A stretch of DNA of 36,821 nt, from the IMG/VR virus record IMGVR_UViG_3300013426_000020. One strand, 5' to 3'. Shown piece by piece: positions 19,201-36,821 of the stretch. The notes under the pieces were generated by a model. It did not search any database. It was not told where the DNA came from and saw nothing but the letters and a program-made list of their open reading frames with translations. A program made the translations under genes and the position numbers. Positions within the stretch are counted from its first letter, which is position 1, and every line of letters starts with the position of its first letter. This DNA comes from a virus. Taxonomy: Duplodnaviria > Heunggongvirae > Uroviricota > Caudoviricetes.

Positions 19201-20598
19201 ATGAATAATATCAAAATAAGCAAAAGCAAGGGGTTCAAGGATGAATATTGTGCAACTTGTGTAAGAATAGGAGAAATTTTTCCTATTGAAGGTAAGGATA
19301 GGATTGTTAAGACAATGGTGAATGGTCTTTCCATTGTGATAGGAAAGGATGAGTTCAAGACTGGTGATGTTGCGGTTTATTGTGCAAATGAAACAATGAT
19401 ACACGAACTGTATCTACATCTCAACTCTATGTATGATGACCCGTTTCTCAATCTTGACAATACAAAGAAGGGGTATATCAACAAGCATGGAAGAATTCGT
19501 ATCGTCAAGCTTGGTGGTGTTCCGTCATATGGACTTCTTCTCAATCCTGAAAGTCTTGCTGTGTTTCTCAATATTTCAAAGGATGAGGTTGTGGAATTTC
19601 TTGAATCACATGTGGGGGAAGATTTTGATGAGATCAATGGAGAAAAGTTTATACAGGTTTATATACCACCTGTGAGAAACAATAGACAGAATATGTCAAA
19701 GTCTGACAGAAGACAGAAGAAACTTGACAGGTTCAAGATGCTCATTGAGGGAACTTTCAGGTTTCATTATGATACGGAAGGATTGCAGAAGCATATGAAT
19801 GAGATAAATCCGGATGATGAGGTATATATTTCAGTCAAGGCACATGGTACATCATCGATATTCGCTAATGTTCTCACAAATGTTCCAACTCCCTGGTATA
19901 AAAGGTTTTGGAGAAAATATGTGAAACATATAAATGAGTATGATCAGAAATATAATCTGGTATATTCTTCAAGGACTGTCATCAAGAATGAGTATATCAA
20001 CAAGAACCAGAAACCAGGTGGATATTATTCTGATGATGTATGGGGATACTGGGCAAAGAAACTTGAAGGTCTTGTCCCGAAGGACTGTGAGATATTTGCA
20101 GAGATTGTAGGTTATACACCAAATGGAACAGCGATACAGAAAGGTTATGACTATGGATGCAAACCATTTGATGAAGAAAAGTCGAAATTGATGGTATATC
20201 GTATGACAGACAAGGGCAAGGAACTTGAAATTCCTGATGTAATGAGATATGGAAAGTATCTTCATGATAAACTGGGAGACGTTATCATTGAATTTCCGTT
20301 ATTGTATCAGGGATTGATGAAAGACTTGTATCCTGATGTTTCAACTACAGAACATTGGCATGAGAACGTGCTTGAACTTTTGAAGAACGAAAAGAGATTT
20401 CTGATGGAAAAAAATGAACCTATGTGCAAAAACAAGGTTCCGAGGGAAGGATTTGTTTTGAGAAAGGCAAATGATCCTATACCGGAAGCATGGAAGTTGA
20501 AATGTTACCATTTTCTCTCACATGAAAGTGCTGCAATTGATGCAGGTGAAGTTGACTGCGAAATGCAGGAAGGATATGGAGATGAACAAAATTTATAA
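19201..20598 (+). CDS. ATP-dependent RNA ligase (Rnl2/DRB0094-like)
   Basis: N-terminal OB-like domain, SVKAHGTS (motif I), FAEIVG, REGFVLR, WKLK. Confidence 0.85.
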   Translation: MNNIKISKSKGFKDEYCATCVRIGEIFPIEGKDRIVKTMVNGLSIVIGKDEFKTGDVAVYCANETMIHELYLHLNSMYDDPFLNLDNTKKGYINKHGRIRIVKLGGVPSYGLLLNPESLAVFLNISKDEVVEFLESHVGEDFDEINGEKFIQVYIPPVRNNRQNMSKSDRRQKKLDRFKMLIEGTFRFHYDTEGLQKHMNEINPDDEVYISVKAHGTSSIFANVLTNVPTPWYKRFWRKYVKHINEYDQKYNLVYSSRTVIKNEYINKNQKPGGYYSDDVWGYWAKKLEGLVPKDCEIFAEIVGYTPNGTAIQKGYDYGCKPFDEEKSKLMVYRMTDKGKELEIPDVMRYGKYLHDKLGDVIIEFPLLYQGLMKDLYPDVSTTEHWHENVLELLKNEKRFLMEKNEPMCKNKVPREGFVLRKANDPIPEAWKLKCYHFLSHESAAIDAGEVDCEMQEGYGDEQNL

Positions 20599-22918: not shown

Positions 22919-24346
22919 ATGACAAGAGAAAAATTCAATAACATTGTTGACTATATAAGAGATATAATTACAGGAACTGAATTCTATAATCATATATATG
23001 TGGTAGGTGGTGCCTGTAGAAATTTGTATATGGGAAGGGAGATAAAGGACATTGATATCGTGATTGATCTTCCAGATGGGGGTGTGAAGTTTGCAAACTG
23101 GTGCAAGGAGAAAGGATATACAAAGACTGTGGTCATATATGAAACATATGGGACGGCAATGTTCAAACTGCATGAGTTTCCTGATGATGAGATTGAATGT
23201 GTAATGACACGGGGTGAGAAATATCTTGATAATGGATCAAGAAATCCTGTTGTTGAATTCTGTTCATTACAGGAAGATGCGATAAGAAGGGACTTCACAA
23301 TAAATGCACTTTATTATAATGTCTCCACTGGTGAAATGGTGGATATGGTGAATGGAAGGAATGATATTGATGATTGTATTATCAGGACAACAAATCCCAA
23401 TCCGGATTTCATATTTCAGGAAGACCCATTGCGGATTCTCCGTGCGGTAAGGTTTTCATGTGTATATGGTTTTTCAATTTCACAAGATACATATGATGCT
23501 ATGAAAAGAAATGCAGACAGACTGGAAATCATTACAAAGGAAAGAATACAGTCTGAACTGAATAAAATACTTATGTCAAATGATGCATCAAGAGGTATAA
23601 ATATTCTTCATGACATAGGAACCATGAAATATATTGTTCCTGACTTTGACAAGTGTTATGGTCTGGAGCAGAATGAGTATCATTTTGGTGATGTTGCTGA
23701 ACATACTCTTGCTGTTCTTGAACATCATTGTGATGTATTTGAACCGAATCTTCCGGAAAGACTTGCATGTTTTCTTCATGACATAGGAAAGGTATATACG
23801 AAATCCGTCAAGAATGGGAAGATACACTTTTATGATCATGAACATATGGGTGCGGAATTGAGTGTTGACATTTTGAGAAAACTCAAATATGATACAAATA
23901 CAATAAAGGAAGTGTGGTTTCTCATAAAAAATCATATGAGAACAAAGCAGGCAGGTATAGGAGGAAGACTTATGAAGGACAAGTCATTGAACAAACTTCT
24001 TTATGAATGCAAGACAAATGAACGATTTATGTCATTGATGAGGGTGATAGAGTGTGACAATATGTCTCATAAAAAAGAACACAATATACAGGGACAGTTT
24101 GCTGAACTTATCACAAGAGTTGAACATAGTCCGCAACATATGAAGATGTTCGGTTATAGACTTCCAGTTGACGGAAATGATATAATGGAGATATTGAAGA
24201 TTGAACCGGGTGAAATCATAAGTGAGATAAACAGAAGGCTTCTCAACCATGCTTTTATAAATCCAGATATCACCAGAGATGAATGTATCAAAATTCTACC
24301 GGGAATAAAAAGGGAAGCAGAAACATATATAATGAAAAATAAATGA
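22919..24346 (+). CDS. cca: CCA-adding tRNA nucleotidyltransferase with HD domain
   Basis: YVVGGACR..KDIDI, RRDFTINAL, EDPLRILRAVRF, H..GDV..HT, LHDIGK. Confidence 0.92.
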   Translation: MTREKFNNIVDYIRDIITGTEFYNHIYVVGGACRNLYMGREIKDIDIVIDLPDGGVKFANWCKEKGYTKTVVIYETYGTAMFKLHEFPDDEIECVMTRGEKYLDNGSRNPVVEFCSLQEDAIRRDFTINALYYNVSTGEMVDMVNGRNDIDDCIIRTTNPNPDFIFQEDPLRILRAVRFSCVYGFSISQDTYDAMKRNADRLEIITKERIQSELNKILMSNDASRGINILHDIGTMKYIVPDFDKCYGLEQNEYHFGDVAEHTLAVLEHHCDVFEPNLPERLACFLHDIGKVYTKSVKNGKIHFYDHEHMGAELSVDILRKLKYDTNTIKEVWFLIKNHMRTKQAGIGGRLMKDKSLNKLLYECKTNERFMSLMRVIECDNMSHKKEHNIQGQFAELITRVEHSPQHMKMFGYRLPVDGNDIMEILKIEPGEIISEINRRLLNHAFINPDITRDECIKILPGIKREAETYIMKNK

Positions 24347-29288: not shown

Positions 29289-29780
29289 ATGATAAACAAA
29301 CTTGAAATAAATGATGATGTCATCATTACAAACTGGATCAATGAACAGGACAGGAATGATGTGAGAGAAAAACTCAATACCCTTGTTGAGGAATTCAATA
29401 TACCAGTATATTTCAAGGGAAGTGAACATTTTCTTTATTGTTTTGATGGATATGAGCATATAACTTCCACACCTTTATCTATAGATTACGGATATGGACT
29501 TACTTTCAAGTCATTGGAAAAATATCTCAAGGATAAGTATGGTGATGGAAATAAAGGTAAATATTTCATTGTTGCATATACTATGTCTATGGACTATGAG
29601 AAATACTACAAGAATGGAACATTTGTTGATTTGAATGGTAAGAATACAGGAGAAGATTTCTGGTATCAGAAAAATACAGATGATCTTGCAAAGAAGGCTG
29701 ATATTGAGAATTACTGGATTGCATATTGTGTTTATGATTTGACTCCATTGAAAACATTGAAAAAAATTGCACATTCATAA
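29289..29780 (+). CDS. Hypothetical protein
   Basis: Start adjusted to MINKL downstream of the promoter. Confidence 0.75.
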   Translation: MINKLEINDDVIITNWINEQDRNDVREKLNTLVEEFNIPVYFKGSEHFLYCFDGYEHITSTPLSIDYGYGLTFKSLEKYLKDKYGDGNKGKYFIVAYTMSMDYEKYYKNGTFVDLNGKNTGEDFWYQKNTDDLAKKADIENYWIAYCVYDLTPLKTLKKIAHS

Positions 29781-29789
29781 AAAGTTTGT

Positions 29790-29797
29790 TATATTTG
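29790..29797 (+). promoter_or_regulatory. Bacteroidota-type -7 box heading the first RNA cluster
   Basis: TATATTTG. Confidence 0.6.
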
Positions 29798-29941
29798 TAA
29801 TGTAAAAAATCCAGAACATATAAATATTGTAAGGATTTATGATAATGAAGTTTCTGGTATAAAATCCACAATGGCAAGTTGCAACAGTTCCAGAGTGGTT
29901 GAGAAGAATTTCAGCTTACAAAAATGGTTCTTCAATATGGA

Positions 29942-30013
29942 AGTCTTGTGGTGTAATGGTAGCATAAACCACCTGAAAGTGGAAAGATGAAGGTTCAACT
30001 CCTTTCAAGACTA
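29942..30013 (+). tRNA. Atypical tRNA-like gene (Phe GAA-like, 6-nt anticodon loop)
   Basis: AGTCTTG/CAAGACT acceptor, normal D and T arms, ccac-CTGAAA-gtgg anticodon arm. Confidence 0.6.
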
Positions 30014-30034
30014 CAAAAAGTTCTTTGAAAAACT

Positions 30035-30171
30035 AATGACAGACAGTTTCATAACTGAAAAGAGACAGAATAGTTCAAAACTTATGGATGAACAGAACAA
30101 TGAGTAGGTTATGAAAGATAGTGAAGTCTGGACTGATAAGCCAGGTGCTTCCCACATCAATGTCTGTCATT
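30035..30171 (+). ncRNA. Structured ncRNA, possibly the catalytic-domain piece of an RNase-P-like RNA
   Basis: 11-bp closing helix aatgacagaca/tgtctgtcatt, inner tttcataac/gttatgaaa helix, GAAGTCTGGA and ACATCAAT motifs. Confidence 0.5.
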
Positions 30172-30175
30172 TGAT

Positions 30176-30260
30176 GGTTCAATGGGGGAACTGGTAGACC
30201 CGACACACTTAAACTGTGTTATTCCGAAGGAATGTGCAGGTTCAAATCCTGCTTGAACCA
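30176..30260 (+). tRNA. tRNA-Leu(TAA)
   Basis: GGTTCAA/TTGAACC acceptor, CT-TAA-AC loop, long variable arm, TTCAAAT T-loop. Confidence 0.93.
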
Positions 30261-30267
30261 CAAAGAT

Positions 30268-30341
30268 TGAAGTATGGTGTAAACAGGTTAACACACAACA
30301 CTTTGGATGTTGCATTTCAGGTTCGAATCCTGATACTTCAA
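30268..30341 (+). tRNA. tRNA-Gln(TTG)
   Basis: TGAAGTA/TACTTCA acceptor, caaca-CTTTGGA-tgttg. Confidence 0.92.
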
Positions 30342-30347
30342 CATAAT

Positions 30348-30426
30348 ATGGGTGTATCGTCACTGTCTTATACACAGTCATTAACAGCGTAATTGGTGTA
30401 TGTGGGTTCGAATCCCACCACCCATA
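30348..30426 (+). tRNA. Non-canonical tRNA-like gene, TAT anticodon, no D arm, long variable region
   Basis: ATGGGTG/CACCCAT acceptor, 7-nt linker, actgt-CTTATAC-acagt, gtggg-TTCGAAT-cccac. Confidence 0.65.
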
Positions 30427-30459
30427 CAATTTATTGGACATAAAATTCAATAGGGCTTC

Positions 30460-30942
30460 ACAACGTCAGTGGAGGAGTACTAGGGAGGGTGATTATATAT
30501 TTTGGATTTGCCGAAAATTAATGAAAGTAGGATAATCCACATCGAAAAACCCTTATACAATCCTAGTTGAGTCAAACGGGGAAGGATATAGGATATGGAA
30601 ACAAGTATTCTGTGTAGAAGTGAAATTGAATGACATCTTGGTGGAATGACATACCATCAATGATGATATTATCAAACATTGTCAAAACAGAGACTGGAGA
30701 ACAGGAAAACAGACAAATGGTTAGTCCTTTTTATAGATTCTGTTCTTGTCATTTCAGTATGAAAGTTATCTGTAGTGCTACGGAAATGAACAGTCTTTGT
30801 TTTTTTATAAAAAATCATAGGGGAGAACAACCTGATGGTAACAGGGAGGGTGTTACGGTTGCCATGTGCTGAATGCGGCCGGATAGTTTATGTTCTATGA
30901 GACAAGTCAAATAAGCACCTGTATCAAAAGGATTTGTCTGTT
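30460..30942 (+). ncRNA. Large structured ncRNA region; the 3' half has RNase P specificity-domain-like motifs
   Basis: No credible ORF; helices actagg/cctagt, agggt/accct, aacagacaaat/atttgtctgtt, cttgtc/gacaag, cggttgc/gcggccg; AGTGCTACGGAAA and GACAAGTCAAATAAG. Confidence 0.55.
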
Positions 30943-31008
30943 GTCTTGATGTTTATATAATGGGAACTGATGGGAAACACATCACAGGTTCAACTCCTGA
31001 TCAAGATA
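30943..31008 (+). tRNA. Degenerate tRNA-like element
   Basis: GTCTTGA/TCAAGAT acceptor, cagg-TTCAACT-cctg T arm, non-canonical interior. Confidence 0.45.
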
Positions 31009-31022
31009 CTATATTTGTAATT

Positions 31023-31593
31023 ATGCATATTCCATTTTTCAAGGATTTTTATCCGGAACATAATCTGGATACTACAACAGGGCTTGTCAATAGATGTATT
31101 GATGAGTCCTGTCATATTGTGAATGAAATTGAATATGCTTCAACAGACATATGTTCTTTGATTTGGAGAAGAAAATTATTTTATAATTTATTCATTATAT
31201 TCCTGTGATATTGAAGAAATTGATGCATTTACACAAAGTGCATATGAAGATGTAAAAGACAGTAAGTCAATAAGTATTGTAAAGTCAAGAATGAAGGATA
31301 CTGATTTATGGTATATACTGGAACTCTTCAAGGAAATGATTGATAAGTTCGGGGATGATTTCAAGTCAAGATATGATAAATTCAATACAGAAATATGTAA
31401 TAATAATCTTCCGGCATATAAGACATACAAGAATCTCATAGAAAGAAGATACAAGACAATATGTAGAAATTTAGGAATTATTCAGATGATGTTGATTGAC
31501 GAGTGCGAAGAAAATATGATTGTTGAAAAATATGACTATTATAGTGTATCTGTGAAAGGTTTATATGTGGATAATAGAAAATACTACATATAA
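31023..31593 (+). CDS. Hypothetical protein(s), possibly one gene with a frameshift near 31160
   Basis: MHIPFF.. frame overlaps an open frame from 31162 that leads into MKDTDLW.. Confidence 0.5.
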
Positions 31594-31623
31594 TTTGTTA
31601 TTTTTATTGAAAATGATTTTTTT

Positions 31624-32076
31624 ATGAATACAATAGAAAATAAAATTCAGATTGATCTTGTCAAGTCTATGAAGGACAAGAATTCTTCAAGGGTCTCCGC
31701 TTTGAGATCTGTAAAGACTGCAATTATGGAAACAAAGACTGCTGCAAATGGAAAGAAGGAACTTGAAGATGCCGATGTTGTCAAGATTATCCAGAAACTT
31801 GCAAAGCAGCGAAACGAATCCGCAGAAATTTATGAACAGAATGGAAGACCTGAACTTGCAGAAAATGAAAGAAGGGAACTTGATGTCATGAATGAATATC
31901 TTCCGAAGATGCTTACCGAGCAGGAAATTGAGAATGTGGTTGCAAAAACCATTGCCGATTTGAATGCCTCTTCAATGAAGGATATGGGTAGAGTGATGGG
32001 ATACATCAACAAGACATATGCTGGACAGGTTGATGGATCAGTTGTTTCAAGAATTGTAAAATCAAGACTATCATGA
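31624..32076 (+). CDS. yqeY: GatB/YqeY domain protein
   Basis: KSMKDK..RVSALRSVK, KLAKQRNESAEIY..GRPELAENE..EL..MNEYLPK, SMKDMGRVM. Confidence 0.9.
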   Translation: MNTIENKIQIDLVKSMKDKNSSRVSALRSVKTAIMETKTAANGKKELEDADVVKIIQKLAKQRNESAEIYEQNGRPELAENERRELDVMNEYLPKMLTEQEIENVVAKTIADLNASSMKDMGRVMGYINKTYAGQVDGSVVSRIVKSRLS

Positions 32077-32282
32077 TTACAATAATTTATCTTATAGGGT
32101 GTCTGTTCTCATTTATTCTTACTTGTCTGTGGTATAGAAGATATAGAAAGACTTTCACAAATGATGAAAGGACATTGACTGTATGTCTGTGGTTTCCATT
32201 TATGACCATTGCTTCATGGTGTGGGGTTATGCTTATGTGTTACTGTCAGGTTGCTAATTTCAATGATTTGAATAATGAGTAA
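32073..32282 (+). CDS. Small membrane protein
   Basis: Two hydrophobic segments. Confidence 0.6.
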   Translation: MITIIYLIGCLFSFILTCLWYRRYRKTFTNDERTLTVCLWFPFMTIASWCGVMLMCYCQVANFNDLNNE

Positions 32283-32457
32283 GTTTGTAGTTTATTCACA
32301 TGACAGGTCGGACATTGAATCGACTATGTTCAAAATTTGCACTTGTGATAGTAGACATAGTGCAAAATATGTAATTGATGCCTTGAAATATAGGGACACT
32401 GGTGGAAAGGATAATCAGTCTGGACTTTATGAGTATTACATTATTGAGGAGAAATAG
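32275..32457 (+). CDS. Hypothetical protein
   Basis: 60-aa ORF in operon. Confidence 0.6.
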   Translation: MSKFVVYSHDRSDIESTMFKICTCDSRHSAKYVIDALKYRDTGGKDNQSGLYEYYIIEEK

Positions 32458-32459
32458 TT

Positions 32460-32852
32460 ATGGGAATTATCATTATCAGTTTTATAGTGGGACTTGCAGG
32501 AATTCTTTATTCAAAGTATAAAGATTTTGACAGTGATTTGGGACAATGGATGTTCATCATAGGTTTTACTGTATTCGGATTTTCCGGAATTTCTGCACTT
32601 GTTGGAATAGATGTTGATGAATTTGATAGAGATTATAGTAAGATAAAATATGAGACTCTTGTTTATAGAAATTCAACAACTCCAGAAGATTATAATTATC
32701 TTCACACACTGGATTATGAAATGAATTCAATGAACAACAGAATTGAAAGAAACAAAAAGTATTCAAACAATTTCTGGATAGGGTGTTTCTATGATGAAAG
32801 AATAAGTGAATATGAGAAGTTTGATATAAAGAAAGAATTGGAGAGGAAATAA
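32460..32852 (+). CDS. Membrane protein
   Basis: Two N-terminal TM segments. Confidence 0.7.
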   Translation: MGIIIISFIVGLAGILYSKYKDFDSDLGQWMFIIGFTVFGFSGISALVGIDVDEFDRDYSKIKYETLVYRNSTTPEDYNYLHTLDYEMNSMNNRIERNKKYSNNFWIGCFYDERISEYEKFDIKKELERK

Positions 32853-34341: not shown

Positions 34342-35175
34342 ATGCAGCCTGTAATAAAATGGACTGGAAGCAAGAGAAGTCAGGCAAATGAACTGATAAA
34401 GTTATTTCCGGGAGAAATGAAGACATATTATGAACCTTTCTGTGGAGGGGCATCTGTTTTGAGAACTCTTCTTGACAATATACAAGAATACACCATAGAA
34501 AGGTTTGTCTGTTGTGATATTGACAAAAATCTCATCAATCTCTGGAATGCCATAAAGAATACTCCGGAGAAGATTATTGATGACTACAGGATTATGTGGT
34601 CAGAACTCAATTCGGCAGGGACAATAGAAAGAAGATGGAAGATATGGGGAGACATAAGGACGAGACTGAATCTTCAACATAATCCGTCAGACTTTATGTT
34701 CATAACGAGAACTGCAACGAATGGGATGACGAGATATAATGCGAAAGGTGAATTCAACAATTCATTTCATATCACAAGGGTTGGAATGAATCCGGAAACA
34801 CTGAAGAAGATTGTCTTTGACTGGTCAAGTATATTGAACAGATACAATGTCAATTTTGAGTTGAAAAGTTATTTGACCCTGAACCCAGAAGAAGGTGATT
34901 TCTGCTATCTTGATCCTCCTTATTATAACACGAAGGCAATATATCAGGGAGGTTTTGACAGTAATAAACTTTTTGAATGGATAAGAAACCTGAAATGTGG
35001 ATATGTGTGGTCTTATGATGGTATTTCTGGAGATAAGGACAATACAGCTTTAGTCCCTGAAGATTTATATGACAGACATATATACCTGAAGTCCGGTAAT
35101 TCATCCTTCAAGAGAACGACAGGAAAGGACAAAAATGCTATGGTTTATGAATCAGTTTATATAAAGTCCAGATAA
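34342..35175 (+). CDS. dam: DNA adenine methyltransferase (Dam/D12 class)
   Basis: IKWTGSK, YYEPFCGGASV, YLDPPY. Confidence 0.9.
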   Translation: MQPVIKWTGSKRSQANELIKLFPGEMKTYYEPFCGGASVLRTLLDNIQEYTIERFVCCDIDKNLINLWNAIKNTPEKIIDDYRIMWSELNSAGTIERRWKIWGDIRTRLNLQHNPSDFMFITRTATNGMTRYNAKGEFNNSFHITRVGMNPETLKKIVFDWSSILNRYNVNFELKSYLTLNPEEGDFCYLDPPYYNTKAIYQGGFDSNKLFEWIRNLKCGYVWSYDGISGDKDNTALVPEDLYDRHIYLKSGNSSFKRTTGKDKNAMVYESVYIKSR

Positions 35176-35289
35176 TTTGTTATATTTATAATGTTGATGA
35201 AATAAAAGTTCATAAATATATGAAGATTTCTCAAATCTTTGTTATATTTATAATGTAAGTTCTTTGAAAGACACACATATGTTTCTGTA

Positions 35290-35356
35290 AAGATTCAGAC
35301 CGCAAAAATTATTTTATAATGATGCACCATTTTTTTCGCATAGACAACAGAATCTT
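35290..35356 (+). ncRNA. Repeated stem element with ACCGCAA motif, copy A
   Basis: aagattc/gaatctt stem enclosing agaccgcaaaaattatttta. Confidence 0.55.
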
Positions 35357-35377
35357 GTTTTGAAACATTTGAGATAT

Positions 35378-35665
35378 ATAGGTCTTGTTGATACTTTCGG
35401 GAAAGACTGTAGGACGAGAGTTCGAATCTCTCCAGATCCACAAAGATTATTTATAAATGGGTCTGACTTGGTTTTTGACTGCTTTTGAGTATGGGAAGAG
35501 GAGAGGTCTATCGCCAATTAGATGGCAACAATGTTTACTCTGTAAACTTCGGTGCTCCTGCACAGCAGACACAGAAGACTATGGTGGCCTTTGCCTAAAT
35601 AGTTTTGGTCATCCCCGAGGTTGGGATCACCCAGAGGGTTCTTTCCGTCTTTCCATAAAGACGGT
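35378..35665 (+). ncRNA. ssrA: Circularly permuted (two-piece) tmRNA
   Basis: GGAC + gagag-TTCGAAT-ctctc + CAGATCC-A (35412-35440) lies upstream of GGGTCTGACTTGGTTTTTGAC (35459-); G3:U70 pair; tag frame 35524-35598 ends in VAFA-stop. Confidence 0.85.
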
Positions 35666-35669
35666 CAAT

Positions 35670-35743
35670 GGCCTGATAGCGTAATTGGTTAGCGCATCTG
35701 ACTGTTAATCAGGGGGTTATAGGTTCAAGTCCTATTCAGGCCG
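35670..35743 (+). tRNA. tRNA-Asn(GTT)
   Basis: GGCCTGA/TCAGGCC acceptor, CT-GTT-AA loop, G73. Confidence 0.95.
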
Positions 35744-35864
35744 CGAAAAGTTCATAAATATATAAAGATTTTTCAAATCTTTGTTATTGATAAATGCAAG
35801 ATTTCTCAAATCTTTGTTATATTTATAATGTAAGTTCTTTGAAAGACACACATATGTTTCTGTA

Positions 35865-35932
35865 AAGATTCAGACCGCAAAATTATTTTATGGATAATAC
35901 TTGTAAGATTACTTTCATCAAAAAAGAATCTT
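35865..35932 (+). ncRNA. Repeated stem element with ACCGCAA motif, copy B
   Basis: aagattc/gaatctt stem, agaccgcaaaattatttta. Confidence 0.55.
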
Positions 35933-35954
35933 GTTCGAAACATTTGAGATACAT

Positions 35955-36109: not shown

Positions 36110-36115
36110 CTTGTA

Positions 36116-36177
36116 AAGATCCTTACCGCAAAATTATTTTATGATGCAATTTTTTGGTATTACATTTTCTGGATCTT
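36116..36177 (+). ncRNA. Repeated stem element with ACCGCAA motif, copy C
   Basis: aagatcc/ggatctt stem (compensatory change versus A and B), ttaccgcaaaattatttta. Confidence 0.55.
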
Positions 36178-36767: not shown

Positions 36768-36821
36768 CAAAAAGTTCTTTGAAATAATCATAAATAAGTT
36801 TCAGATTTCTCAAATCTTTGT

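What the first reader, a model, noticed from the sequence alone, without database searches (positions are those of the whole stretch)
35378..35665. Circularly permuted two-piece tmRNA in a Bacteroidota jumbo phage
Seen: the tmRNA 3' end (GGAC, gagag/ctctc T arm with TTCGAAT, CAGATCC plus discriminator A at 35440) comes before an 18-nt spacer and then the tmRNA 5' end GGGTCTG (35459). The two pair as an acceptor stem with the G3:U70 alanine determinant. Further cross-piece pairing (gagtat/atactt, cttt/aaag) mimics P2. A UAG-AU-GGC resume context opens a tag frame. Established: permuted ssrA is known from alphaproteobacteria, some cyanobacteria and some betaproteobacteria, whereas Bacteroidota tmRNAs are, as far as I know, one-piece. 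Inference: an independent permutation in a phage; a standard one-piece model would miss it, and the ORF track instead shows spurious ORFs here.
Basis: partly seen in the sequence, partly recalled or inferred. Interest (0 to 1): 0.85.

Follow-up and report, generated by a model that had tools for sequence, protein, structure and literature searches.

The report
Phage-borne compact two-piece tmRNA gene
A large, uncultured phage related to megaphages of gut Bacteroidota carries a rearranged ("two-piece") gene for tmRNA, the RNA that frees stalled ribosomes. Phages are already known to carry such genes, but this one belongs to a stripped-down version, found only in viral DNA in the collections I searched, that I did not find described.

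Summary
The tmRNA 3' half lies at 35378-35440, with a T arm, the acceptor 3' strand and discriminator A. An 18-nt spacer follows, then the 5' half and a tag frame at 35459-35664. G3:U70 is present.

- **Detection:** ARAGORN calls a permuted tmRNA. Rfam RF04321 matches at 39.1 bits, below its cut-off of 47. Two relatives about 80% identical score 48.9 and 49.5. A family model built without this lineage scores the window at 85 bits (E 8e-15).
- **Selection:** Relatives show compensatory changes in the T stem, acceptor stem and 3' hairpin. Tag-frame indels are multiples of three, and four of the last five codons (MVAFA) differ only synonymously.
- **Family:** It is a compact class with a short spacer, no encoded CCA, no room for pseudoknot 1 and a Gly resume codon. 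I found the class in viral and metagenome contigs. A pattern scan of 185,579 species genomes and a model search of 151 Bacteroidota genomes found no genuine copy.
- **Context:** The closest phage relative also encodes SmpB.

The permutation is family-wide, not specific to this phage. An origin independent of the alpha, beta and cyano lineages, from a Bacteroidia-type tmRNA, is suggested but unproven. This scan noted the same family before on other DNA. Expression could not be tested.

The parts
35204..35379 (+). Repeated upstream module (promoter-like TTTG...TTTG element plus leader) that ends in GAGATATAT just before the acceptor piece
   Evidence: The direct repeats recur at 35746-35954 directly before tRNA-Met and in part at 36112 and 36772. 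The leader ends at 35379, by analogy with the tRNA-Met copy that ends at 35954. A promoter role is inferred: neither promoter scan was enriched over shuffles.
35378..35440 (+). Acceptor piece: P2c' 35378-85, P2b' 35391-96, P2a' 35401-07, GGAC 35412-15, T arm 35416-32, acceptor 3' strand 35433-39, discriminator A 35440; CCA is not encoded
   Evidence: Alone it matches the 3' end of RF00023 (E 4e-7) and RF04321 positions 1-61. Sequence conservation with L146/L207 begins at about 35374.
35441..35458 (+). 18-nt AT-rich spacer, removed during maturation (inferred)
   Evidence: It differs in sequence and length (20-21 nt) in L146/L207 while both flanks are conserved. Compact-family spacers are mostly 16-21 nt.
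35459..35523 (+). Coding piece, 5' part: acceptor 5' strand 35459-65, D-loop analogue ending in GAC 35466-79, P2a 35481-86, P2b 35487-92, P2c 35504-11, and a 12-nt A-rich run ending in TAGAT before the resume codon
   Evidence: This stretch is nearly identical in L146/L207. The three-part P2 covaries in the GEQ-tag subgroup.
35524..35598 (+). Tag reading frame: resume GGC, 24 codons GNNVYSVNFGAPAQQTQKTMVAFA, stop TAA 35596-98
   Evidence: ARAGORN call. Against L146/L207, indels are +3, -3 and +6 nt, there are 6-7 codons with synonymous-only changes, and MVAFA is kept through 4 synonymous changes.
35599..35669 (+). Coding piece 3' domain: variable hairpin 35607-31, conserved CCCAGAGGGTT 35630-40, terminal hairpin 35645-52/35657-64, then 5 nt before the tRNA
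   Evidence: Fold. In L146/L207 the terminal hairpin keeps pairing through a G:C to A:U double change and the 11-mer is conserved.
35670..35744 (+). tRNA-Asn(GTT) directly downstream; RNase P cleavage at its 5' end would set the 3' end of the coding piece (inferred)
   Evidence: 71.3 bits. L207 also has a tRNA right after its terminal hairpin.
22919..24346 (+). Phage CCA-adding enzyme (tRNA nucleotidyltransferase), a likely helper for the tmRNA and tRNA 3' ends
   Evidence: PHROG 2244 E 2e-71; Pfam PolyA_pol, PolyA_pol_RNAbd and HD. None of the nine window tRNAs, nor the tmRNA, encodes CCA.

Best explanation
This is a functional, circularly permuted ssrA gene of a large phage. It makes a two-piece tmRNA.

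Shown here:
- The gene order is acceptor piece (about 63 nt), an 18-nt spacer, then the coding piece (about 207 nt).
- The tRNA-like domain is intact: a 7-bp acceptor stem with G3:U70, discriminator A and a T arm.
- The tag frame is under protein-level constraint.
- The gene sits in a phage tRNA cluster.
- It belongs to a compact family that I found in viral and metagenome contigs but not in the cellular genomes searched.
- The closest relative carries SmpB.

Inferred from what is established for two-piece tmRNAs (Caulobacter, Keiler et al. 2000, as cited in PMC9004378):
1. The region is transcribed with the neighbouring tRNAs from the repeated upstream module.
2. RNase P cuts 5' of G35459 and 5' of tRNA-Asn (35670).
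3. The acceptor piece is trimmed back to A35440.
4. CCA is added by the host or by the phage's own CCA-adding enzyme.
5. The two pieces are held together by the acceptor stem and a three-part P2 helix (about 20 bp).
6. Alanyl-tRNA synthetase charges the RNA through G3:U70.
7. With SmpB it enters stalled ribosomes. Translation resumes at GGC 35524, adds a tag ending in MVAFA, and stops at UAA.

The likely benefit is keeping ribosomes free during infection, when mRNA is being cut. The unusual tag end (FA rather than AA) may change what happens to tagged proteins; that part is speculation.
For: - **Detectors:** ARAGORN calls a permuted tmRNA at 35349-35689. RF04321 gives 39.1 bits, E 3.5e-6, and RF01850 a partial 34.5 bits. 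The acceptor piece alone matches the RF00023 3' end.
- **Leave-out model:** Model R1, built from 16 family members without this lineage, scores the window at 85.0 bits over its full length. It scores L207 at 84.9, L146 at 83.3 and L121 at 53.3.
- **Relatives above the Rfam cut-off of 47:** L146 48.9 and L207 49.5; L121, L001 and L013 score 60-63.
- **tRNA-like domain pairing:** Across 19 family members 100% of cells pair, 5 of 12 pairs change on both sides, and G3:U70 is present in 19 of 19.
- **Window against L146:** T stem A:U becomes G:C. Acceptor position 4 goes from U:A to C:G. The terminal hairpin goes from G:C to A:U.
- **Tag frame:** Indels are in threes and the MVAFA codons differ only synonymously. 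The two L146-versus-L207 differences are both synonymous.
- **P2 helices:** The three parts covary in the GEQ-tag subgroup, with 95.4% of cells paired against about 52% when partners are slid, and 12 of 31 pairs changed on both sides.
- **Partner and helpers:** SmpB is present in the relative's record, E 6e-53. The window has a CCA-adding enzyme and no encoded CCA on any tRNA or on the tmRNA.
- **Independent copies:** Near-identical DNA occurs in a separate assembly (L218, 99.5%), and the window's CCA-adding enzyme is found unchanged on at least 22 contigs of other assemblies.
Against:
- The window's own copy is below Rfam's gathering score.
- Its P2 duplex energy is no better than shuffles (z = -0.25). 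P2a has a C-A mismatch or a shifted register compared with relatives.
- There is no room for pseudoknot 1, and no clear pseudoknot lies downstream.
- The tag ends in FA, not the usual AA.
- The resume codon is a prediction. ARAGORN picks a later in-frame Ala codon in L146.
- I could not check SmpB in this phage's own genome.
Confidence: 0.88

Rival explanations
1. It is a tmRNA-derived RNA that no longer tags proteins. It could be a decaying copy, or a tRNA-like decoy that binds SmpB or AlaRS and interferes with host trans-translation. The CDS-less tmRNA-like gene of mycobacteriophage DS6A was reported to act that way.
For: The Rfam score is below threshold. P2 is energetically weak in this copy. 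Pseudoknots are missing and the tag end is non-canonical. The DS6A precedent is quoted in PMC11915505.
Against: The tag frame is kept open, with indels only in threes and mostly synonymous change at its C-terminus. Stems keep pairing through compensatory changes. The leave-out family model scores 85 bits over its full length. The relative carries SmpB, which fits use rather than blockade.
Confidence: 0.07
2. It is not a permuted gene but two unrelated fragments that lie side by side. One would be a leftover tmRNA or tRNA 3' end, such as an integration-site duplicate. The other would be the 5' part of a one-piece tmRNA whose own 3' end is elsewhere or lost.
For: Duplicated tmRNA 3' ends next to mobile elements are common. 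ARAGORN also offers a one-piece call at 34999-35441 that uses the same 3' end.
Against: No second tmRNA 3' end follows the coding piece; tRNA-Asn does. The two acceptor strands co-vary between relatives: U4:A69 becomes C:G in L146/L207. The same order with a short spacer recurs in many unrelated viral contigs. The one-piece call starts inside the Dam methylase ORF 34342-35175 and its tag is AT-rich noise.
Confidence: 0.02
3. The region encodes small proteins (the ORFs at 35457-35684 + and 35314-35517 -), and the RNA features are incidental.
For: Both ORFs appear in a mechanical ORF list.
Against: Neither frame stays open in L146 or L207, where open frames are shorter and in other phases. Conservation instead follows RNA helices and the short tag frame.
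Confidence: 0.01

Closest known systems
Phage-encoded two-piece tmRNAs of aquatic myophages (OM43 phage Melnitz, pelagimyophages; PMC9004378)
   Same: Both are phage-borne, circularly permuted ssrA genes called by ARAGORN. The gene order is the same (acceptor piece, spacer, coding piece), and both lie among translation-related genes.
   Different: Melnitz's ssrA is reported as alphaproteobacterial in type (PMC9004378). Most permuted loci I pulled from IMG/VR have Ala-resume AND-type tags and a UUCGAC loop. The window's gene has a Gly (GGC) resume codon, a UUUUGAC loop, no encoded CCA, an 18-nt spacer and no room for pseudoknot 1. It sits in a phage akin to Bacteroidota megaphages.
Two-piece tmRNAs of Alphaproteobacteria, some Betaproteobacteria and Cyanobacteria (Rfam RF01849, RF01850, RF01851; merged model RF04321, PMC11915505)
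   Same: The permuted gene form is the same, as is the tRNA-like domain with G3:U70. RF04321 recognises the family: relatives score 49-63 bits.
   Different: The window scores 39.1, below the cut-off of 47. RF01850 matches only positions 82-161 at 34.5 bits against a cut-off of 84. These are cellular lineages, and the compact family turned up in no cellular genome searched: a pattern scan of 185,579 species genomes gave only false hits and model R1 found none in 151 Bacteroidota genomes.
One-piece tmRNAs of Bacteroidota with Gly tags (GENNYALAA, GNNSYALAA in an Alistipes MAG, GNTQLAMAA)
   Same: Both use a GGC resume codon after an A-rich ...AAAU/AGAU context. The tag openings are similar (GNN.Y, GNT). 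Both have a GAC-UGG-UUUUGAC-(A/U)GC 5' region and a P2a helix next to GGAC. They group together in the tRNA-like-domain tree (SH-like support 0.81).
   Different: Those are one-piece RNAs of 370-405 nt matching the full RF00023 model at 105-197 bits. This gene is permuted, about 270 nt in total, and its tag is 24 residues ending in VAFA.
One-piece tmRNA of Prevotella megaphage Lak-C1 (MK250029.1), and tmRNA plus SmpB reported in huge phages (PMC7162821)
   Same: The phage kind is related: the CCA-adding enzyme is 35-37% identical. Both are phage-owned ribosome-rescue parts.
   Different: Lak-C1's gene is a standard one-piece form (RF00023 49.4 bits, tag DDEIDFRMAA) and has no RF04321 match.

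Membership tests
tmRNA (ssrA) | tRNA-like domain: 7-bp acceptor stem with G3:U70, T arm with a GTTCRANYC-type loop, discriminator A | tested here: met
   Across 19 family members all 12 pairs form, with covariation, and G3:U70 is present in 19 of 19.
tmRNA (ssrA) | 3' CCA end available for alanylation | tested here: inconclusive
   CCA is not encoded; A35440 is followed by CAA. The same holds for all nine tRNAs of the window, and the phage encodes a CCA-adding enzyme. Addition is inferred.
tmRNA (ssrA) | Short tag reading frame with a resume codon after an A-rich context, a hydrophobic Ala-rich C-terminus and a stop | tested here: met
   Frame 35524-35598. Its conservation pattern is that of a coding sequence. 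The C-terminus VAFA departs from the usual ...AA.
tmRNA (ssrA) | P2 helix joining the tRNA-like and mRNA-like domains | tested here: inconclusive
   Complementary strands are present in the window, and the helices covary in a subgroup. The window's own duplex energy equals that of shuffles, and its lineage shows almost no variation in P2.
tmRNA (ssrA) | Pseudoknot 1 before the resume codon and pseudoknots 2-4 after the tag (canonical one-piece architecture) | tested here: not met
   Only 12 nt separate P2c (ends 35511) from the resume codon (35524). Downstream folding gives two plain hairpins. Reduced pseudoknot sets are known in two-piece forms, so this does not exclude function.
tmRNA (ssrA) | SmpB partner available | tested here: inconclusive
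SmpB is found in the closest relative's record. Bacteroidota hosts have SmpB (control).
tmRNA (ssrA) | Alanylation, RNase P processing and tagging activity | not testable with these tools
   These need bench work or RNA reads.
Permuted (two-piece) tmRNA gene form, Rfam RF04321 | Acceptor piece upstream of the coding piece in one transcription unit | tested here: met
   The order is the same in L146, L207, L013, L001 and L121.
Permuted (two-piece) tmRNA gene form, Rfam RF04321 | Score at or above the curated gathering threshold (47 bits) | tested here: not met
   The window scores 39.1 bits. Relatives pass: 48.9 and 49.5, and 60.5-63.4.
Alpha, beta or cyano permuted lineages (RF01849, RF01850, RF01851) | Full-length match to a lineage model; Ala resume codon as in most permuted loci sampled | tested here: not met
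   The best match is RF01850, covering positions 82-161 only, at 34.5 bits against a cut-off of 84. The resume codon is GGC (Gly).
   85.0 bits, E 8e-15, model positions 1-179. The listed features are read.

The most novel reading that the evidence does not exclude
The compact tmRNAs would represent a further, independent circular permutation of ssrA. On this reading it arose from a Bacteroidia-type one-piece tmRNA and is maintained only in phages. In this jumbo-phage lineage it would work with a phage-encoded SmpB and a phage CCA-adding enzyme as a phage-owned trans-translation system. Its pseudoknot-free RNA and altered tag (...VAFA) would redirect the fate of tagged host or phage proteins.
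Probability: 0.3. Interest if true: 0.7.

Novelty: new variant of a known kind. Interest (0 to 1): 0.5.

Why it matters
Two-piece tmRNA has been treated as a trait of three bacterial lineages (plus organelles), with phage copies seen as loans from those lineages. This gene points to a separate compact form, found only in viral DNA in the collections I searched, whose features resemble Bacteroidia one-piece tmRNAs. That form would be a natural minimal tmRNA, with no pseudoknot 1 and about 270 nt in two pieces. It could be used to test which parts of tmRNA are really needed. Together with a phage SmpB and CCA-adding enzyme, it would show how far large gut phages take over host translation quality control. 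There is also a practical point: the copy in this window falls below Rfam's threshold, so Rfam-based annotation would leave it out.

Tried and rejected
- **Rfam at gathering scores:** no tmRNA family matched in the window.
- **Coding piece alone:** no RF00023 match, as expected for half-helices.
- **GenBank phages:** blastn with the locus gave only tRNA hits, and megablast with 22 kb gave nothing.
- **Whole genome:** none is held for this window.
- **Dam methylase as a synteny probe:** no IMG/VR relative found.
- **Genome contigs pattern scan:** five hits, all false. They were the end of a one-piece tmRNA or a tRNA-Ala followed by a chance motif.
- **Metagenome pattern scan:** mostly chance hits; 3 of 119 were genuine.
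- **Bacteroidota promoter motif TTTG-N17-21-TAnnTTTG:** not enriched in the window, 3 found against 2.1 expected.
- **LuxS atlas look-up:** gave Bacillota and Actinomycetota clusters and said nothing about the host.
- **MFE cofolding of the two pieces:** gave an implausible structure.
- **ARAGORN's one-piece call 34999-35441:** rejected because it lies in the methylase ORF.
- **SmpB in the window's own contig:** the records found through the look-up of encoding contigs are not searchable.
- **RNase P RNA search in the window, 29.5-32.6 kb:** nothing at E <= 0.01.
- **Complex prediction and structure prediction:** not used, as they do not bear on an RNA gene.

Full report
**1. The observation**

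| Element | Coordinates |
|---|---|
| GGAC | 35412-15 |
| T arm GAGAG / TTCGAAT / CTCTC | 35416-32 |
| Acceptor 3' strand CAGATCC | 35433-39 |
| Discriminator A | 35440 |
| Spacer (18 nt) | 35441-58 |
| Acceptor 5' strand GGGTCTG | 35459-65 |

- The two acceptor strands form seven pairs with G3:U70.
- The 5' side continues with a tmRNA-style D-loop analogue that ends in GAC at 35479.
- The context TAG-AT-GGC opens a 24-codon frame at 35524, closed by TAA at 35596-98.

**2. Detectors**

- ARAGORN reports a permuted tmRNA at 35349-35689 with tag GNNVYSVNFGAPAQQTQKTMVAFA.
- At Rfam gathering thresholds nothing but tRNAs is found.
- With an E-value threshold on a 901-nt stretch, RF04321 (tmRNA_permuted) matches 35384-35565 at 39.1 bits against a cut-off of 47, E 3.5e-6. 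RF01850 matches the tRNA-like core at 34.5 bits.
- The acceptor piece alone matches the 3' end of the one-piece model RF00023, E 4e-7. The coding piece alone does not, which is expected because it holds only half-helices.

**3. Relatives**

- A pattern scan of IMG/VR for the permuted core found over 120 loci.
- ARAGORN run on these loci splits them by tag. A majority have Ala-resume AND-type tags. A compact class has 16-21-nt spacers, no encoded CCA, low G+C and Gly-resume tags such as GEQVELAMAA, GENSYEMKMAA and GNNVNFFDYTLKVA.
- The window's CCA-adding enzyme (22919-24346) led to the closest phage relative. This is a 194-kb contig (L121, 54% amino-acid identity). It carries a permuted tmRNA in its tRNA cluster with tag GNFNNNTNEMVMLAAA.
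- RF04321 scores the genes of L121, L001 and L013 at 63.0, 63.4 and 60.5 bits, above the cut-off.
- A metagenome scan with a motif from the coding piece gave two contigs about 80% identical over 35371-35598 (L146, L207). It also gave a 99.5% identical copy from another assembly (L218). L146 and L207 pass the Rfam cut-off at 48.9 and 49.5 bits.

**4. Evidence of selection**

*Stems.* Between the window and L146/L207:
- One T-stem pair changes from A:U to G:C.
- Acceptor pair 4 changes from U:A to C:G, and pair 5 from C:G to U-G.
- One pair of the terminal hairpin (35645-64) changes from G:C to A:U. Its stem is 8 bp in the window and 7 bp in the relatives.
- The spacer and the sequence upstream of about 35374 are not conserved.

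*Tag frame.*
- It differs by indels of +3, -3 and +6 nt.
- 6-7 codons differ only synonymously.
- The last five codons (MVAFA) carry four synonymous changes and no replacement.
- The two differences between L146 and L207 are both synonymous.
- The SVNFG block upstream also shows synonymous change. Translation therefore starts early in the frame, consistent with the GGC resume codon, although ARAGORN chooses a later in-frame Ala codon in L146.

*Family level.*
- On an alignment of 19 compact-family members the 12 pairs of the tRNA-like domain form in every sequence. Five pairs change on both sides, and G3:U70 is invariant. The search pattern left these positions free.

**5. Architecture**

- RNAduplex on 25 family members shows the same three-part intermolecular P2. 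P2a lies next to GAC/GGAC, P2b follows, and P2c joins an AGGTC-type strand of the coding piece to the 5' end of the acceptor piece.
- In the GEQ-tag subgroup these helices covary. 95.4% of cells pair, against about 52% when partners are slid, and 12 of 31 pairs change on both sides.
- In the window the strands are as follows.

| Helix | Coding piece | Acceptor piece | Note |
|---|---|---|---|
| P2a | 35481-86 | 35401-07 | one C-A mismatch, which L146 repairs to C-G |
| P2b | 35487-92 | 35391-96 | |
| P2c | 35504-11 | 35378-85 | 8 bp, two G-U pairs |

- The window's duplex energy is no better than shuffles (z = -0.25; family mean -1.57). P2 here therefore rests on homology.
- Only 12 nt separate P2c from the resume codon, so pseudoknot 1 is absent.
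- After the tag come a variable hairpin, a conserved CCCAGAGGGTT (35630-40) and a terminal hairpin. tRNA-Asn follows 5 nt later.
- A covariance model built from 16 family members, without the window, L146, L207 or L121, scores the window at 85.0 bits over all 179 positions (E 8e-15).

**6. Context**

- The gene lies in a tRNA cluster. It is preceded by a repeated module that recurs before tRNA-Met.
- None of the nine tRNAs, nor the tmRNA, encodes CCA. Each has its discriminator followed by C and then A or T.
- The window encodes a CCA-adding enzyme and an RNA ligase.
- The relative's record (G001) encodes SmpB, E 6e-53.
I could not check that.
- The ORFs listed over the locus are not conserved.

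**7. Host and kin**

- The CCA-adding enzyme matches a 735-kb uncultured phage best. Next come the Prevotella Lak megaphages.
- Al-Shayeb et al. predict Bacteroidetes hosts for their phages above 634 kb (PMC7162821).
- The named homologues of the relative's SmpB are all Bacteroidota. One is a 76%-identical protein on a 391-kb contig filed under Prevotella.
- A Bacteroidota promoter motif is not enriched, and a LuxS look-up was uninformative.
- A Bacteroidota host is therefore likely but indirect.
- Lak-C1 itself carries a one-piece tmRNA and no permuted one.

**8. Origin**

- A pattern scan of one genome for each of 185,579 prokaryote species gave only false hits.
- Model R1 found nothing genuine in 151 Bacteroidota genomes.
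- Bacteroidota one-piece tmRNAs with Gly tags (GENNYALAA, GNNSYALAA, GNTQLAMAA) share three features with the window's lineage: the GGC resume codon, the tag opening and the UUUUGAC loop. Ala- and Asp-tag members of the phylum, and most Ala-tag permuted viral genes, have UUCGAC.
- A 61-column tree of the tRNA-like domain groups the window's lineage and L001 with those Gly-tag one-piece tmRNAs at 0.81 local support. Raw identity does not separate the groups.
- This suggests, but does not prove, a permutation event separate from the three known lineages.
- The event is older than this phage, because the gene form is shared across many contigs.

**9. What is already known**

- Two-piece tmRNAs in phages are published: 53 by ARAGORN among 18,146 phage genomes, mostly aquatic (PMC9004378).
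- tmRNA plus SmpB in huge phages is published (PMC7162821).
- The 2025 tmRNA database lists a few dozen permuted genes in Bacteroidota assemblies (18 alpha, 23 beta, 7 cyano). It says nothing about them in the text I read.
- I found no paper describing a compact, Gly-resume, pseudoknot-1-free phage family, or a permuted tmRNA in gut jumbo phages.
- This scan has noted the same family on other DNA before.

**10. Verdict**

This is a real permuted tmRNA gene, very probably functional (0.88). It is a divergent member of an undescribed compact family, found only in viral DNA in the collections I searched. The kind of thing (a phage two-piece tmRNA) is known. The variant and its likely Bacteroidia-type ancestry are new as far as I could search. 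Expression and processing remain untested.

Noticed in passing
window 35204-35379, 35746-35954, 36112-36143, 36772-36821: A repeated module sits in front of each RNA gene group. It holds an AGATTT-CTC-AAATCT hairpin, TTTG-N-TTTG promoter-like boxes and an ACCGCAAAA core, and ends in GAGATA(T/C)AT. It looks like a reused promoter-plus-leader cassette for the tRNA/tmRNA units.
   Followed up: partly
window tRNA 3' ends (30014, 30261, 30342, 35744, 36030, 36110, 36602, 36686, 36768) and 22919-24346, 19201-20598: None of the nine phage tRNAs encodes CCA; each discriminator is followed by C and then A or T. The window carries its own CCA-adding enzyme and an RNA ligase, which suggests a phage-run tRNA end-repair and maturation set.
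   Followed up: partly
window 29942-30014: ARAGORN reports a tRNA of undetermined identity (tRNA-???, anticodon given as 'ga'). Rfam's tRNA model scores it at only 46 bits. It may be a tRNA-like gene with an odd anticodon loop.
   Followed up: no
L146 1812-1971 (-) and L207 3934-4093 (-): Both close relatives have a sub-threshold match to archaeal-type RNase P RNA (RF00373, 42 bits against a cut-off of 84, E about 2e-9) a little over 1 kb from the tmRNA. No such match appeared in window 29500-32600 at E <= 0.01.
   Followed up: partly
L314 1272-1503 and 1501-1844 (LR756501.1, 735-kb uncultured phage): A strong group I intron match (96 bits) abuts a weak one-piece tmRNA match (21 bits). This may be an intron-bearing or degenerate tmRNA gene in the largest published phage genome.
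   Followed up: no
L311 1501-1897 (Prevotella phage Lak-C1, MK250029.1 182229-182625): Lak-C1 carries a standard one-piece tmRNA (RF00023 49.4 bits) with the predicted tag DDEIDFRMAA. The record has no annotation, and ARAGORN did not call the gene.
   Followed up: partly
L121 15903-15974: In the closest phage relative the spacer between the two tmRNA pieces is 72 nt and CCA is encoded. The window has an 18-nt spacer and no encoded CCA, so both traits vary within this jumbo-phage lineage.
   Followed up: no
window 35630-35640: An 11-nt element CCCAGAGGGTT downstream of the tag is identical in the relatives L146 and L207, although the hairpin before it is completely different. CCCAGAG also recurs after the tag in most of the distant GEQ-tag subgroup. 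Its partner or role is unknown.
   Followed up: partly
L218 1-66 versus window 34495-34560 and 35190-35787: A 99.5% identical strain variant lacks about 630 bp (34561-35189, the end of the Dam methylase gene) just upstream of the tmRNA module. This points to indel polymorphism at that junction.
   Followed up: no
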